64,000 nucleotides of DNA. It comes from Acidobacteriota bacterium (GTDB lineage: Bacteria; Acidobacteriota; UBA6911; RPQK01; JAJDTT01). This document shows, in pieces, positions 1-2,957 of this stretch; position 1 is the stretch's first letter; every line of letters starts with the position of its first letter. The notes under the pieces are model-generated. The model searched no databases. It saw only the letters and a program-made list of their open reading frames with translations, and was not told where the DNA came from. Location of the stretch: assembly GCA_965217775.1 (NCBI GenBank), contig CBDCJH010000002.1:992001-1056000 (forward strand). The letters are read 5' to 3'. The position numbers and the translations under genes are program-made.

Positions 1-946
1 CGAGGTCCGGCAGCAGCTTGAAACCCAGGCTCCAATGCGCGTCGTCCGACTTGTAGTCGCCTGGGACCCGGCTCCCGTCGCCTGCCCGGTAGTCGTTGCC
101 CTGCCGCCGGTTGTAGAGCAGATGGAGCCGCATCCACTCGTTCCCGCCCCAGAACAGGCCATGTCCGTCCTGGTTGACGGCATTTTGTCCGTAGCGGTAG
201 CCGAGCCGGCCATGGAACCGGCTGCCGCCGGTGAAGAATGGAGGCCGGAAGGTCTGTACCTGGATTCCGCTCAGAACCCCGGCCCCCCAACCCAGGGCGT
301 AAGGCCCCTTGACCACACGAATGGACCGGACGGCGTGGGGGCTGACATGGCTCATGTCCGAGTCCATGCGGGCGGGACCGGCGGCAAAGGTCCGGGTCCC
401 GTCCACGAAGGTTCCGATCTGGTTTTCCTGCAGGCCCCGAATGTTCGGTTCCAGGTTGATGGGTCCTCGCCGGACTGCAGCCGTGCCCGGCTCGCCCCGG
501 AGGAGCTCGGCCAGGTCCTGACTCTCTTGACGGTCGATCTTGCCACTGCCGACAGCCAGCTCGCGGTGCATCCGGGGAGCACTCGCCCTGACCTCCAAAT
601 GTTGCGTGGCGGTATCCACCTCCAGCCGCACCAGCAATTCCTGGGGCTCATCCCCCAGAAGCCACGTCCTTTGGTAGATCTGAAATCCGGGCACCCTGAC
701 CCTCAACGAATAGCGTCCCGGTTTCAGGCGGACCCGAAACTCGCCTCGATCATCGGTGAAGCGGGCCTCCACCGGTCGGCCGGAACGGAGGGCCTTCACT
801 TCGGCGCCTGGAATGGGATAGCCGTGAGGGTCCAGGACCCGGCCCTCGAACAATACGGGCTCGGTTTCCGCGGCCGGGAGCATCCCTCCCGCCGCCGCCA
901 TGCAGGCGAGCGGGAGCCAGACCGCGGTGCCAATAAGTTGGCGCAT
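1..946 (-). CDS. TonB-dependent receptor, OprC/NosA-like copper-receptor clade (5' part; runs off window edge)
   Basis: Not in the ORF track because it has no stop in the window. Manual translation from ATG at 946 (RBS AGGAGG at 952-957): MRQLIGTAVWLPLACMAAGG signal peptide, carboxypeptidase-regulatory-like domain (GRVLDPHGYPIPGAEV), plug with RRGPINLEPNIRG...FAAGPARMDSDMSHV...IRVVKGPYALGWG. Confidence 0.85.
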   Translation of the reverse strand, partial: MRQLIGTAVWLPLACMAAAGGMLPAAETEPVLFEGRVLDPHGYPIPGAEVKALRSGRPVEARFTDDRGEFRVRLKPGRYSLRVRVPGFQIYQRTWLLGDEPQELLVRLEVDTATQHLEVRASAPRMHRELAVGSGKIDRQESQDLAELLRGEPGTAAVRRGPINLEPNIRGLQENQIGTFVDGTRTFAAGPARMDSDMSHVSPHAVRSIRVVKGPYALGWGAGVLSGIQVQTFRPPFFTGGSRFHGRLGYRYGQNAVNQDGHGLFWGGNEWMRLHLLYNRRQGNDYRAGDGSRVPGDYKSDDAHWSLGFKLLPDL

Positions 947-948
947 AC

Positions 949-1083
949 GATCCTCCTTGTGGTATCGCACGCTCAGAAGAGACGGGGACCCCGGTGGGCG
1001 CGCAGATGTCACTCCGGCCGTCGGGGACCCGAAATCGTCGTACTGCTGTCGTCGAATCAGGAAGAGCGGCGTGGAGGAGGATC
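949..1083 (-). promoter_or_regulatory. Putative anti-SD/SD helix coupling leader-ORF translation to receptor translation
   Basis: On the mRNA, GATCCTCCT (leader codons D-P-P, 1083-1075) is exactly complementary to AGGAGGATC (receptor SD region, 957-949). A nested CACGC/GCGTG helix and an inner GACGG/CCGTC hairpin are also possible. Confidence 0.55.
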
Positions 1084-1455
1084 TTCTACGGCTGGCGGGA
1101 TCAGGGGTGTCGGTAAGGGAGTTTCCTGGTGAAGACCGGAGTCAAAGTCTTCGGAACCGGTCCAAACCGGAGAGAGGAAGACCGCCTTCAGGTTCATGAA
1201 ACCAATGAGCTCGGGCTCAGCTCCGCAGTCGGAGACGAACCGGAGCGCGTCCGGCTTCCGCACCGGCCGGGCGCAGGCCCGATGACGGTTGTCCGGGTTC
1301 TTCAACTGCTTCAAGCACAGGTCCGGGCAGCAGCAGACGCTCCCATGAGTCGGGCAGACCGAAGCCGCCGGCTCGCTCTCCGTTTCTTGAACCACCCAGA
1401 CCATGGGGCTGGTGGCCAGGACGAACAAGAGCGTAGAGCTGGCCAGGGTCTTCAC
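1057..1455 (-). CDS. Small exported Cys-rich leader protein, CutF/CruR (DUF2946)-like, with C-terminal Pro-rich arrest-type motif
   Basis: N-terminal hydrophobic segment; 7 Cys including CPTHGSVCCCPDLC; C-terminus PPAVEDPPPRRSS; ends 110 nt upstream of the receptor on the same strand. Confidence 0.7.
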   Translation of the reverse strand: MKTLASSTLLFVLATSPMVWVVQETESEPAASVCPTHGSVCCCPDLCLKQLKNPDNRHRACARPVRKPDALRFVSDCGAEPELIGFMNLKAVFLSPVWTGSEDFDSGLHQETPLPTPLIPPAVEDPPPRRSS

Positions 1456-1556
1456 AAAGTCAGAGTACGCCGAACCGAACCTGGGCGCAATGAGGAAGAG
1501 GGGAAGGGAAGGAAAGAGGAGATAGTAGAGAGTGGGCAGATACGGGGACGGTCAAT

Positions 1557-2957
1557 TCAGCCGTGGCGGACCCAGCGAACGATCTCGGGGAGGCTGGCGC
1601 GCTGTCCCCGCATCAGGATTCCCACTCGATAGATCCGCCCGGACATCCAGACGGCGGCCGCCACAGCCGCGGCCAACAGGACCAGGGAGAGCATCCACTG
1701 CCAGAGCGGGACTCCGGTGGAGAAGAGCCGGGACGGCATCACCACAGCGTTGAAAGGAGGGACCATCGACAGCATCACGGCCCATCTGTTGTTGGGACTC
1801 TCCATCAGCAAGGGGCCCGCGATGAGGGAGATCATGCTCACGAAGACGATGGGCGTCACCGCCTGTTGGGCGTCCTGAAGGTCACTGACCGTGGCCCCGA
1901 CGGCGGCGAAAACCGAGGTATAGAGAAGGTAGCCGAGCAGGAAGAAAAGGAGAGCGGGGACCATGCTGTCCCATGGGATCGAGCCCGAAATCCGGTCGAT
2001 GTCCGCCAACTCGGCAGCATCACCTGGGAGAGGGCCGGGGCCGCCGGAAGCGGGGATAGTGGAGGGGAAACTTGGCAATCCGCCGCGGGTGAGAACGTAG
2101 CCCGCCGCGGCCGCCAACATCAGCGCCCAGATTCCAATCTGAGCCAGGGCCATGGCGCCGCACCCCAATATCTTCCCCAGCATCAGTTCCCAGGGGCGTA
2201 ACGACGATGCCAGGATTTCGACGATGTTCGATTGCTTGTCCTCGATGGTCGACATCAGGACCATCTGCCCGTAAGCTACCAGGAGCATGAAAAAGACGTA
2301 GACGATACCCATGCTGGCAACGGTCTGTATGGTCTGGGAGCGGCTATCGCCCGTTTCGGTGACGTTGACGGTATTCAATCGAGGTCGGCGCAGCAGCTCT
2401 CGAGCGTCTACCGCTTCGACTCCCGCCGCTTGGAGACGCGTCTGCAAGAGGGCGCGTTGGAGCGCGTTTCGGACCGATCTTCGGGTTGCCGACGGCACCC
2501 TGTCCTTGCCCAGCAGGGTGGCGGCCACCCGGTCCTCCGCGTCATCCGTCTCCCGGTTCTGCGCCGGCTCCCGTCGATTCGGGGTGCGGACCACCCCCTC
2601 TGAAACGGCGACTCCCGACGGTAGAATCAGCAGGTAGTCGAACGGCGCCGACAGGAATCGTTCCCTGATCGTGGGGACAGGGAGAGGTTCCATGTCGCTC
2701 ACCCTCGACGCCGCAACGGAACCGTCATTCAACTCCTCCACCAGGAGATTCGCTACGATTCCATCGGCGTCCACGACGCCAATGGTCTTCCCCTTCTCGG
2801 AGTCCTCGACGTCCCGCATGGCGAAAACGATCAGGAATGCCACCCCGACCATGATCACCGGCATTCCGATGGTGCCCAGGATGAACCACTTGGTCTTGAC
2901 GCGTTGCATGAACTCCCGGACCGCAACTGCCAGGACGTTCGGCGTAAACGGGTTCAT
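1557..2957 (-). CDS. ABC-2 type transporter permease (NatB/YhaP-like)
   Basis: N-terminal TM helix, large extracytoplasmic loop, EDKQSNIVEILASS...LMLGKILG motif, several C-terminal TM helices; 4-bp overlap with the ATPase gene. Confidence 0.9.
   Translation of the reverse strand: MNPFTPNVLAVAVREFMQRVKTKWFILGTIGMPVIMVGVAFLIVFAMRDVEDSEKGKTIGVVDADGIVANLLVEELNDGSVAASRVSDMEPLPVPTIRERFLSAPFDYLLILPSGVAVSEGVVRTPNRREPAQNRETDDAEDRVAATLLGKDRVPSATRRSVRNALQRALLQTRLQAAGVEAVDARELLRRPRLNTVNVTETGDSRSQTIQTVASMGIVYVFFMLLVAYGQMVLMSTIEDKQSNIVEILASSLRPWELMLGKILGCGAMALAQIGIWALMLAAAAGYVLTRGGLPSFPSTIPASGGPGPLPGDAAELADIDRISGSIPWDSMVPALLFFLLGYLLYTSVFAAVGATVSDLQDAQQAVTPIVFVSMISLIAGPLLMESPNNRWAVMLSMVPPFNAVVMPSRLFSTGVPLWQWMLSLVLLAAAVAAAVWMSGRIYRVGILMRGQRASLPEIVRWVRHG

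What the first reader, a model, noticed from the sequence alone, without database searches (positions are those of the whole stretch)
944..1455. Candidate metal-sensing ribosome-stalling switch: CutF/CruR-like leader whose arrest codons are the anti-SD of a TonB receptor
Seen: the 132-aa ORF has an N-terminal signal-like helix, a Cys/His cluster (CPTHGSVCCCPDLC, containing CxxxC) and a Pro-rich tail PAVEDPPPRRSS, and ends 110 nt before an OprC-like receptor. Its D-P-P codons GAT CCT CCT (1083-1075) pair perfectly over 9 bp with the receptor's AGGAGGATC SD region (957-949), and CCT is an unexpected Pro codon in this GC-rich genome. Known: CutF (Rhodobacter capsulatus; CxxxC + Pro-rich tail) and CruR (Bordetella pertussis; DUF2946, CxxC + RAPP, upstream of the TonB transporter BfrG) are exported nascent-chain copper sensors that act by ribosome stalling. 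Inference: a ribosome paused on DPPP would melt the helix and switch on receptor translation, with periplasmic metal binding controlling the pause. I know of no description of this in Acidobacteriota, or of an anti-SD built into the arrest codons themselves.
Basis: partly seen in the sequence, partly recalled or inferred. Interest (0 to 1): 0.85.

Follow-up and report, generated by a model that had tools for sequence, protein, structure and literature searches.

The report
Cys-rich PPPR leader before outer-membrane receptor
A small exported, cysteine-rich gene ending in a proline run sits in front of a copper-receptor-like outer-membrane gene, and its last codons pair with that gene's ribosome-binding site, so it looks like a new sequence family of the known "stalling leader" switches, though nothing has been tested at the bench.

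Summary
A 132-aa ORF (1057-1455, minus strand) has a hydrophobic N-terminus, the cluster CPTHGSVCCCPDLC and the tail DPPPRRSS. It ends 110 nt before a 771-aa TonB receptor whose best solved relative is OprC. GATCCTCCT (1083-1075) is the exact complement of AGGAGGATC (957-949).

The ORF belongs to a small family without any Pfam or NCBIfam match, found in 17 of 137 genomes of its class. Members share a Cys motif at residues 34-47, further Cys at 61 and about 77, PP(P)R near the C-terminus, and 75-78 residues between motif and PP. They always precede an outer-membrane protein gene.

In 6 of 8 lineages the downstream SD is predicted to pair mainly with the last codons of the leader. Only 6 of 261 control gene pairs of this genome reach that level. 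The anti-SD lies in the Pro codons themselves in only 3 of the 8 lineages.

It is not a DUF2946 member: the HMM gives no hit, and profile-profile comparison gives probability 0.5%. It does fit the rule-based "CutF-like" description.

Best reading: a nascent-chain, stall-dependent unmasking of the SD. That makes it a new variant of a known kind. Stalling, the metal and the direction of control are all untested.

The parts
1456..1490 (-). Conserved block directly upstream of the leader's GTG (TTGCGCCCAGGTTCGGTTCGGCGTACTCTGACTTT), holding the direct repeat GGTTCGGTTCGG. Possibly a promoter or operator. No SD precedes the GTG.
   Evidence: Kept with few changes in 8 of 8 genus loci (printed). The sigma-70 consensus scan finds nothing here. 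Function is inferred only.
1057..1455 (-). Leader ORF, 132 aa, GTG start, TGA stop.
   Evidence: GTG is at the same place in 8 of 8 loci. dN/dS is 0.44. Homologues.
1390..1455 (-). Codons 1-22, MKTLASSTLLFVLATSPMVWVV: a signal-sequence-like N-terminus.
   Evidence: Read from the sequence. A basic residue at position 2-3 followed by a hydrophobic run is seen in 12 of 14 rows of A6. No signal-peptide predictor was available.
1315..1356 (-). Codons 34-47, the Cys/His cluster C-P-T-H-G-S-V-C-C-C-P-D-L-C.
   Evidence: In A4 (15 rows) G38, C41, C43, C47 and C61 are invariant and C34 nearly so. In A6 (14 rows) C34, C43 and C61 are invariant and C41 and C47 nearly so. The motif sits at residues 38-47 in 13 of 15 rows (31-40 in the two rows with a shorter annotated start).
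1225..1275 (-). Span from codon 61 (Cys, at 1273-1275) to codon 77 (Cys, at 1225-1227), the two further conserved cysteines.
   Evidence: C61 is invariant. A Cys is at or next to position 77 in most rows of A6.
1069..1083 (-). Codons 125-129, D-P-P-P-R (GAT CCT CCT CCA CGC): the putative arrest motif and the 5' arm of the long-range helix (anti-SD).
   Evidence: PP is invariant in 15 of 15 rows of A4. In RNAalifold, columns 31-44 pair with columns 145-167. Synonymous-recoding test.
985..1031 (-). Central hairpin of the intergenic region, enclosed by the long-range helix.
   Evidence: RNAalifold columns 83-131; one of its pairs shows a compensated change.
949..972 (-). 3' arm of the long-range helix: GCGTGCGA (972-965) and the SD region AGGAGGATC (957-949).
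   Evidence: The core CCUCC/GGAGG pairs are kept in 8 of 8 loci but are invariant, so they carry no covariation.
947..1056 (-). Intergenic region, 110 nt (110-112 nt in the genus).
   Evidence: The length differs by 1-2 nt between loci, so it is not coding in the receptor's frame. 65 of 112 columns are invariant, against 96 of 201 four-fold sites in the receptor. There is no Rfam match.
1..946 (-). First 315 codons of a 771-aa TonB-dependent receptor (CarboxypepD_reg + Plug + barrel). It runs off the window's left end. purA follows on the other strand, so the unit is the leader plus the receptor.

Best explanation
The 132-aa ORF is a cis-acting regulatory leader of a new sequence family. It appears to work like the exported arrest-peptide leaders CutF, CruR and SecM.

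Proposed steps:
1. Leader and receptor are made from one mRNA.
2. The leader's N-terminus takes the nascent chain to the Sec translocon.
3. When the ribosome reaches D-P-P-P-R (codons 125-129), elongation slows. By then about 80 residues have emerged, so the Cys/His cluster (34-47), C61 and C77 lie outside the cytoplasmic membrane.
4. The state of those cysteines (metal-bound, or disulfide-bonded and folded) sets how long the pause lasts.
5. While a ribosome covers 1069-1083, these bases cannot pair with 949-972, so the receptor's SD is free and the receptor is translated.
6. After termination the long-range helix closes again.

Shown here: the anatomy, the conservation of the motifs and their spacing, the recurrence of SD pairing with the leader's end above background, and the codon choice.

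Inferred: export, stalling, the ligand (copper is the first guess, because the receptor is OprC-like), and the direction of control. For an importer I expect more receptor when the metal is scarce, as with CruR.
For: Family and conservation:
- 9 close homologues; 7 of 8 genomes of the genus; 17 of 137 genomes and 7 of 51 genera of the class; only 4 clusters among 1.84 billion representatives.
- Invariant G38, C41, C43, C47, C61, P126 and P127 in 15 rows.
- The spacing from C47 to PP is 75-78 residues in 14 of 15 rows, although the stretch between is not conserved across genera.
- PP(P)R lies 2-13 residues before the stop.

Downstream genes are always outer-membrane proteins:
- CarboxypepD_reg TonB receptors or barrels in the genus of the window, the second genus, L043 and L046.
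- A roughly 270-aa protein resembling Phenol_MetA_deg channels in L009, L041, L042 and L044. The resemblance comes from the Atlas and is a lead only.

SD masking, measured as the share of SD pairing that falls on the last 24 nt of the leader plus 11 nt:
- Genus of the window: 0.31-1.00 in 7 loci (median 0.82).
- Second genus: 0.99 and 0.74.
- L042 0.99, L043 0.91, L044 0.98, L046 1.00.
- Control gene pairs of this genome: 15 of 261 reach 0.5 and 6 of 261 reach 0.75.

Codon choice: the native Pro codons rank 4, 7, 1, 1, 1, 4, 2 and 4 of 64 synonymous variants for SD:Pro-codon pairing in 8 loci of two genera.

Ribosome footprint: forcing a footprint on PP to be unpaired lowers predicted SD pairing to 0.30-0.62 in 8 of 14 loci. 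The same footprint placed 36 nt upstream leaves it at 0.88-1.00.

Other support:
- PP is conserved even where the anti-SD lies outside the Pro codons, so PP is a constraint on the protein.
- The AF2 model is mostly disordered (mean pLDDT 52.9), and dN/dS is 0.44 against 0.14 for the receptor, as expected for a leader in which only the motifs matter.
- Contigs from four RNA libraries of one study run unbroken from inside the leader across the intergenic region. In three of the four runs they continue into the receptor gene.
- EF-P is present.
- In G005 the leader and receptor decayed together.
- Literature for the kind: CruR (passages of PMC9426467); CutF (Introduction and Discussion of 10.1101/2025.02.05.636593; section 10 and passages of PMC9973294).
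Against: - No experiment exists: stalling, export and metal binding are all inferred.
- The window's own locus has the weakest masking value of its genus (0.31; 18 of 261 controls reach it).
- The helix carries no covariation. Its core pairs are invariant, and the one flank that changed on both sides (GAT>GAC with ATC>TTC) became a C.U mismatch.
- The 8 genus loci are close kin. 48-63% of four-fold sites are invariant, so keeping CCT CCT in 8 of 8 is not significant in itself.
- Two lineages fit poorly: L041 at 0.00 and L009 at 0.39.
- In 6 of 14 loci the SD stays at 0.74 or more paired under the simulated footprint, through other partners.
- An SD being paired in silico is the norm in this genome (mean 0.70 in controls).
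- The control set comes from one genome of 62% GC, while the other lineages have 51-60% GC.
- Pro codons are anti-SD-like by nature.
- PPPR is not a characterised arrest motif, and PPP pauses are normally resolved by EF-P.
- Contigs from an RNA library cannot prove a single transcript, and DNA can be present in such libraries.
Confidence: 0.55

Rival explanations
1. Plain translational coupling with a functional small protein. The ORF encodes an exported Cys-rich (metal-binding or disulfide-bonded) periplasmic partner of the outer-membrane protein. Masking of the SD by the leader's last codons only ensures that the receptor is made when the small gene is translated. There is no regulated pause and no sensing by the nascent chain.
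For: The same anatomy fits: any ribosome passing the last codons opens the helix. Six conserved Cys could form three disulfides or a metal site in a mature protein. The association with outer-membrane proteins is conserved.
Against: The invariant PP and the fixed spacing of 75-78 residues to the Cys cluster, across an otherwise unconserved stretch, are hard to explain for a folded partner protein. The AF2 model is largely disordered, although the alignment is shallow. dN/dS is 0.68 for codons 98-124. The partners differ (TonB receptors versus small channels) while the leader keeps the same motifs.
Confidence: 0.22
2. CruR-type transcription attenuation. The paused ribosome at PPP shields the nascent RNA from Rho, and release of the pause lets Rho terminate before the receptor gene. 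The SD helix would be secondary.
For: This is the mechanism shown for the only characterised leader before a TonB receptor (abstract and passages of PMC9426467). The intergenic regions are long (45-228 nt).
Against: The intergenic region is not C-rich and G-poor (C 36, G 34 of 110 nt) and is predicted to be strongly structured, which does not look like a rut site. The recurrent SD pairing has no role in this model. The model is not excluded and could coexist with the best explanation.
Confidence: 0.1
3. No switch. The ORF is an ordinary lineage-specific hypothetical protein, and the complementarity arises because Pro-rich (CCN) tails resemble anti-SD sequences.
For: CCU CCU is by nature the complement of AGGAGG. 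A match of 9 bp or more arises in 1-4% of shuffles. There is no covariation. The close kinship of the 8 loci explains the invariant codons.
Against: The pairing recurs in lineages with different SDs, different intergenic lengths and different anti-SD positions against a 2-6% background. With other Pro codons the pairing mostly disappears (usage-weighted mean 0.00-0.11).
Confidence: 0.1

Closest known systems
CutF of Rhodobacter capsulatus (cutFOG; DUF2946-like; PMC9973294 and preprint 10.1101/2025.02.05.636593)
   Same: A small exported ORF under 150 aa with a Sec-type N-terminus, CxxxC among further cysteines, and a C-terminal PPP. The SD of the next gene is masked by RNA structure that a ribosome paused at PPP would open. 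[quoted passage not shown]
   Different: There is no detectable sequence relationship. The Cys cluster lies 75-78 residues from PP, against 45 for CutF. The target is an importer-like receptor, not a detoxifying oxidase. The anti-SD lies in or just after the Pro codons and pairs over about 110 nt, rather than sitting in a local intergenic stem-loop.
CruR of Bordetella pertussis (bp2923, DUF2946; PMC9426467)
   Same: A uORF with a signal peptide, conserved Cys and a proline motif a few residues before the stop. It lies directly before a TonB-dependent transporter, and the spacing between its two motifs is conserved.
   Different: CruR has CXXC and RAPP, acts through Rho-dependent termination, and does not need its signal peptide or EF-P. 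Here the motifs are C-x-C-x3-C and PPPR, PF11162 does not match, and the intergenic region does not look like a rut site.
RAPP/RGPP uORFs upstream of TonB-dependent receptors and other metal-homeostasis genes (PMC12992588, passages only)
   Same: The same gene arrangement and the same predicted localisation signal, reported across Gram-negative phyla.
   Different: That screen was defined by RAPP/RGPP. This family has PP(P)R and so would not have been captured by it.
SecM-secA, MifM-yidC2 and VemP-secDF2 monitoring substrates (as summarised in the Introduction of 10.1101/2025.02.05.636593 and in PMC9973294)
   Same: An exported nascent chain arrests near its C-terminus, and the arrested ribosome opens a structure that masks the downstream SD.
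   Different: Those systems sense translocation activity and control the localisation machinery. Here the targets are outer-membrane proteins and the leader carries a Cys/His cluster.
OprC/NosA copper receptors (PMC8610252), for the downstream gene
   Same: OprC is the best solved relative (E 2e-29, full-length alignment). The equivalents of Met147, His323 and Met325 are kept.
   Different: TIGR01778 scores 192.8 bits, below the 472.45 cut-off. Cys143 is Gly; in OprC the C143A mutant loses Cu(II) binding but still binds Ag(I) (passages). There is an extra N-terminal CarboxypepD_reg domain.

Membership tests
DUF2946 (PF11162; CruR/CutF family) | Match to the Pfam HMM PF11162 at its gathering score (23.7 bits) | tested here: not met
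   0 families at E<=1 for the ORF. None of the 15 family members hits PF11162 even at E<=10. The six-frame search of the whole genome gives a best of 13.6 bits, at another place.
DUF2946 (PF11162; CruR/CutF family) | Profile-level homology to true members | tested here: not met
   hhalign of A4 (15 rows) against A5 (4 DUF2946 proteins from Acidobacteriota genomes): probability 0.5%, 1 aligned column. A5 is small, so distant homology is not excluded.
DUF2946 (PF11162; CruR/CutF family) | CXXC (CruR) or CxxxC (CutF) metal motif | tested here: inconclusive
   There is no CXXC. C43-P-D-L-C47 is a CxxxC inside G-x2-C-x-C-x3-C, which is present in 15 of 15 rows of A4.
DUF2946 (PF11162; CruR/CutF family) | C-terminal RAPP three residues before the end, and about 45 residues between the Cys motif and the Pro motif | tested here: not met
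   The motif is D-P-P-P-R with 4 residues after PPP. The spacing from C47 to PP is 75-78 in 14 of 15 rows. C77 to P126 is 48 residues, which may or may not be the equivalent distance.
CutF-like proteins by the rule-based filter of PMC9973294 | [quoted passage not shown] | tested here: met
   132 aa; PPP at residues 126-128 of 132; receptor on the same strand after 110 nt.
CutF-like proteins by the rule-based filter of PMC9973294 | Predicted N-terminal signal peptide, and recovery by jackhmmer from CutF seeds | not testable with these tools
   A hydrophobic N-terminus can be read from the sequence, but no signal-peptide predictor and no CutF seed set were available. The paper's lists are in supplements that were closed.
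Regulatory ribosome arrest peptides (functional class) | Demonstrated elongation arrest at a defined codon that controls the downstream gene in cis | not testable with these tools
   Only indirect support: the invariant PP, the conserved spacing, and SD masking by the leader's end.
OprC/NosA TonB-dependent copper receptor (TIGR01778), for the downstream gene | Score over the equivalog cut-off, and the CxxxM-HxM copper site | tested here: not met
   192.8 bits against 472.45. The site reads G-P-A-R-M and H-L-M, 3 of 4 ligands. It is the best-matching family, not an equivalog.

The most novel reading that the evidence does not exclude
This is an independent, convergent invention of the transmembrane nascent-chain sensor. 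A Cys/His cluster is held a fixed 75-78 residues from a PPPR pause site, so that it reports periplasmic metal or thiol-redox state. The paused ribosome itself acts as the anti-anti-SD, because the pause codons (or the codons just after them) are the sequence that masks the SD of an outer-membrane channel gene about 45-170 nt away. On this reading, one class of Acidobacteriota (including sponge-associated ones) sets outer-membrane uptake capacity purely at the level of translation.
Probability: 0.35. Interest if true: 0.65.

Novelty: new variant of a known kind. Interest (0 to 1): 0.55.

Why it matters
Exported arrest-peptide leaders that sense copper are recent discoveries (CruR in 2022, CutF in 2023-2025). 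Searches for them so far start from DUF2946 or from RAPP/RGPP.

This family has neither. It still shows the same architecture, so such switches may be more diverse and more often reinvented than motif-based screens suggest.

The family offers three natural comparisons for asking how a signal outside the cytoplasmic membrane is turned into a pause:
- a different motif (PPPR);
- a different spacing between Cys cluster and proline motif (75-78 against 45 residues);
- a long-range SD mask that overlaps the pause site.

It also gives a first regulatory handle on metal uptake in uncultured Acidobacteriota.

Tried and rejected
- **Rfam.** No match at E<=1 in 850-1650, so this is not a described riboswitch or leader RNA.
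- **Promoter and terminator scan of 850-1700.** No sigma-70-like site. The two terminator-like hits lie inside the ORF and are no more than the shuffles give.
- **Covariation in the genus alignment.** The RNAalifold covariation term is +0.6, and the anti-SD/SD pairs are invariant. The 8 loci are too similar to test the helix this way.
- **Metagenome scan with A2.** 594 pattern matches, none confirmed. The genome-contig scan returned only loci already found.
- **Structure.** The AF2 model has mean pLDDT 52.9 and pTM 0.20. It is too poor for a fold search, so none was run.
- **Protein Atlas for the ORF.** The nearest clusters are unnamed Acidobacteriota proteins of 131-134 aa. One DUF6769 cluster appears at rank 19 (score 0.94, 117 shared features). 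No member hits DUF6769 in Pfam at E<=10, so this lead was dropped.
- **Lipoprotein reading.** The residues before C34 (A-S-V-C) do not fit a lipobox as I recall its consensus. This was not tested with a predictor.
- **Receptor start at the upstream GTG (1012).** Rejected because the intergenic length differs by 1-2 nt between loci, and because ATG 946 has the SD and a signal-like N-terminus.
- **RNA-library contigs.** No contig covers 1445-2165. Contigs end at 1439-1444 in 3 of 4 runs of one study. Lack of cover proves nothing, so I use it only as a weak hint that the transcript starts near the GTG.
- **SD choice.** The automatic choice of SD was wrong for L009, so that row is not used. Searches use GGAG there.

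**Rows left out**
- L005 (almost identical to L004) and L003 were omitted.
- L005 was omitted.
- L041 was omitted.
- L045 was omitted from all RNA tests, because no downstream gene could be identified within its locus.
- L012 and L013 (weak hits) were not pursued.

**Not available**
- Supplements were closed. Table S1 of PMC9426467, and Figs S5-S7 and lists B-D of PMC9973294, may already contain this family or Acidobacteriota members.
- Searches behind the "not described" statement. "Acidobacteri" does not occur in the main text of PMC9973294.
Full report
**1. What is there**

On the minus strand a GTG at 1455 opens a 132-codon frame that stops at 1059-1057. The product starts with MKTLASSTLLFVLATSPMVWVV, carries C34-P-T-H-G-S-V-C-C-C-P-D-L-C47 and ends P-A-V-E-D-P-P-P-R-R-S-S.

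After 110 nt (947-1056) an ATG at 946, preceded by AAGGAGGATCGT, opens a TonB-dependent receptor that leaves the window. In the genome this receptor is 771 aa and is followed by purA on the other strand, so the unit is the leader plus the receptor. An ABC-2 transporter pair lies upstream.

GAT CCT CCT (1083-1075) is the exact complement of AGGAGGATC (957-949).

**2. Is it more than chance?**

- The MFE fold of 930-1100 contains the helix, but the fold as a whole is ordinary (z = -1.48).
- A perfect complement of 9 bp or more that covers GGAG appears in 49 of 5000 shuffles of the nearest 134 nt, and in 180 of 5000 shuffles of the 489 nt upstream.
- CCT is 11.9% of Pro codons, and CCT-CCT is 4.1% of Pro-Pro pairs. 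That is uncommon, not rare.

Taken alone, the window gives a suggestive coincidence and no more.

**3. The ORF is a real, conserved gene of a small unnamed family**

- No Pfam or NCBIfam model matches.
- Close homologues (75-92% identity) exist in Acidobacteriota/"Aminicenantes" MAG records and in 7 of 8 genomes of the genus.
- A profile of the family finds only 4 clusters among 1.84 billion representative proteins, but 17 of 137 genomes and 7 of 51 genera of the class.
- Within the genus the frame has no indels, the GTG is kept in 8 of 8 loci, and dN/dS is 0.44, against 0.14 for the receptor.
- Across about ten lineages (A4, A6), little is conserved beyond the N-terminal basic-plus-hydrophobic segment, the cysteines C34, C41, C43, C47 and C61, a Cys near 77, and PP near the C-terminus (PP(P)R in 10 of 14 rows of A6).
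- The Cys motif sits at the same residues, and the distance from C47 to PP is 75-78 residues in 14 of 15 rows, although the sequence between is not alignable between genera.
- An AlphaFold model built from the 15-row alignment is mostly disordered (pLDDT 52.9).

**4. Context**

Wherever a downstream gene could be read, it is an outer-membrane protein on the same strand. There are two types:
- CarboxypepD_reg TonB receptors or barrels: the genus of the window, the second genus (only 23% identical to the window's receptor), L043 and L046.
- A protein of about 270 aa with no Pfam hit, which the Atlas places beside Phenol_MetA_deg-like channels (a lead only): L009, L041, L042 and L044.

The window's receptor is best matched by TIGR01778 at 192.8 bits, below the cut-off of 472.45, and by OprC among solved structures (E 2e-29; the next is 8e-12). 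Of the OprC CxxxM-HxM ligands it keeps Met, His and Met, but has Gly for Cys143.

In G005, the one genome of the genus without the leader, the upstream block and the first five leader codons remain. A deletion then joins them to receptor residue ~124, and a second deletion removes residues ~209-647. The two genes decayed as a unit.

**5. The RNA within the genus**

RNAalifold on the 8 loci pairs GAUCCUCCUCCACGC with GCGUGCGA...AGGAGGAUC around a central hairpin. These pairs are invariant, so there is no covariation.
- Five of 8 loci have the 9-bp helix.
- Two have GAC/UUC, which gives a C.U mismatch after changes on both sides.
- One has a 7-bp helix in a register shifted by one base.

Four-fold sites are invariant at 96 of 201 positions in the receptor and 26 of 41 in the leader. 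The conserved CCT CCT in 8 close relatives is therefore weak evidence by itself.

**6. The RNA across lineages**

The informative tests use the other lineages and explicit controls.

(a) *Synonymous recoding.* Among the 64 ways to encode PPP, the native codons rank 4, 7, 1, 1, 1, 4, 2 and 4 for predicted SD:Pro-codon pairing in 8 loci of two genera. These genera have different SDs (AGGAGG, GAGGAG, AGGAG) and different Pro codons.

(b) *Where the anti-SD lies.* In L042 the partner is again the Pro codons. In L046, L043, L044 and L009 it is a CU-rich stretch 4-26 nt after the Pro codons. In L041 there is none.

(c) *A common measure against a genome control.* The measure is the share of SD pairing that falls on the last 24 nt of the upstream ORF plus 11 nt.

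| Set | Value |
|---|---|
| Genus of the window (7 loci) | 0.31-1.00, median 0.82 |
| Second genus | 0.99, 0.74 |
| L042 | 0.99 |
| L043 | 0.91 |
| L044 | 0.98 |
| L046 | 1.00 |
| L009 | 0.39 |
| L041 | 0.00 |
| 261 same-strand gene pairs of this genome | 15 reach 0.5; 6 reach 0.75 |

Family values are and the control. The control also shows that an SD being paired in silico is normal (mean 0.70), so only the identity of the partner is informative.

(d) *Simulated ribosome.* Forcing a ribosome footprint on PP to be unpaired lowers SD pairing to 0.30-0.62 in 8 of 14 loci. In the other 6 it stays at 0.74-1.00 through other partners. A footprint 36 nt upstream does not free the SD in any locus.

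The window's own locus is the weakest of its genus on measure (c).

**7. Reading**

PP is conserved even where it is not the anti-SD, and its distance from the Cys cluster is fixed. PP is therefore a constraint on the peptide and not a by-product of the RNA. Masking of the SD by the leader's 3' end is a recurrent feature in its own right. Together these are the anatomy of an exported arrest-type leader.

With the ribosome on PPP, about 30 residues would be in the tunnel and about 20 in the translocon. Those figures are the ones used in PMC9973294. All six cysteines would then be outside the membrane. How metal or disulfide state changes the pause, and in which direction, is inference by analogy with CutF and CruR. 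The best explanation, its refutation tests and the three rivals with their confidences are set out in their own sections.

Other observations:
- EF-P is present.
- Contigs from four RNA libraries of one sponge metatranscriptome study, about 96% identical to the window, run unbroken from 1396-1444 down to 740, 832, 910 and 973. All four cross from the leader into the intergenic region, and three reach into the receptor gene. This fits one transcript but does not prove it.
- The intergenic region is not C-rich over G (36 against 34), which gives no support to a Rho site. A CruR-type mechanism is still not excluded.

**8. Comparison with the known**

The kind is in print:
- CruR: CXXC, RAPP three residues from the end, before the TonB transporter BfrG, Rho-dependent (abstract and passages of PMC9426467).
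- CutF: CxxxC, PPP, a stem-loop masking the cutO SD, EF-P-dependent (PMC9973294 section 10 and passages; preprint Introduction and Discussion).
- RAPP/RGPP uORFs with signal sequences before TonB receptors in many phyla (passages of PMC12992588).

This family fails the membership tests for DUF2946: HMM, hhalign at 0.5%, motif and spacing. Canonical DUF2946 proteins do occur in Acidobacteriota (3 of 301 genomes over the cut-off), and two of the four loci I read are followed by TonB receptors.

The family does meet the rule-based CutF-like filter of PMC9973294. An anti-SD that coincides with the arrest codons is a lineage-specific version (3 of 8 lineages) of the classical arrangement, in which the arrested ribosome opens a helix that masks the next SD.

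I found no description of this family in my searches.

**9. Verdict**

This is a new sequence family that most likely works like CutF or CruR, so it is a new variant of a known kind.

- Confidence in the stall-and-unmask mechanism: 0.55.
- Confidence that the signal is copper is lower. It rests only on the OprC likeness of one of the two target types, and that receptor lacks the key cysteine.

Noticed in passing
window 1456-1490 (-): A 35-nt block directly before the leader's GTG is kept in 8 of 8 genus loci and contains the direct repeat GGTTCGGTTCGG. No SD precedes the GTG. In one relative (L003) the part 9-14 nt before the GTG reads CATAAT. It may be a promoter giving a leaderless or very short-leader mRNA, or a regulator's binding site.
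   Followed up: partly
window 1491-1533 (-): A CU-rich tract lies between the ABC-2 permease stop (1557) and the conserved block. The 101-nt region is 76% pyrimidine (C 41, T 36). One database entry (P0002) translates the equivalent tract as an N-terminal extension.
   Followed up: no
L049/L048 (G005:C1:140630-144209): In the one genome of the genus without the leader, the upstream block and five leader codons remain. A deletion joins them to receptor residue ~124, and a second deletion removes residues ~209-647. This is a decayed remnant of the whole unit.
   Followed up: yes
L025 and L027 (other Acidobacteriota genomes): Canonical DUF2946 ORFs (CxxC ... RAPP plus 3-4 residues) lie directly before TonB receptor genes. 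CruR-type pairs therefore do exist in this phylum, though rarely (3 of 301 genomes over the cut-off).
   Followed up: partly
L041 (G009), intergenic region after the leader homologue: The 228-nt intergenic region holds a very long, very stable hairpin (MFE -145 kcal/mol for the 332-nt construct). This is the only lineage where the SD does not pair with the leader's end. It may be an inserted repeat element.
   Followed up: no
window 1-946 (-) and L022: The OprC-like receptor has Gly where OprC has the copper ligand Cys143, but keeps the Met and H-x-M ligands. It carries an extra N-terminal CarboxypepD_reg domain.
   Followed up: partly
window 1062-1069 (-) in relatives L002 and L004-L008: In relatives whose tail ends RSFS, the last codons plus the stop (TTC TCC TGA) give a second SD-complementary stretch, UCUCCU. 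This may explain why their SD stays paired in the footprint simulation.
   Followed up: no
window 2166-2600: RNA-library contigs over the ABC-2 permease gene match the window at 99-100%, while those over the leader and receptor match at about 96%. At least two strains of this organism seem to be present in those samples.
   Followed up: no
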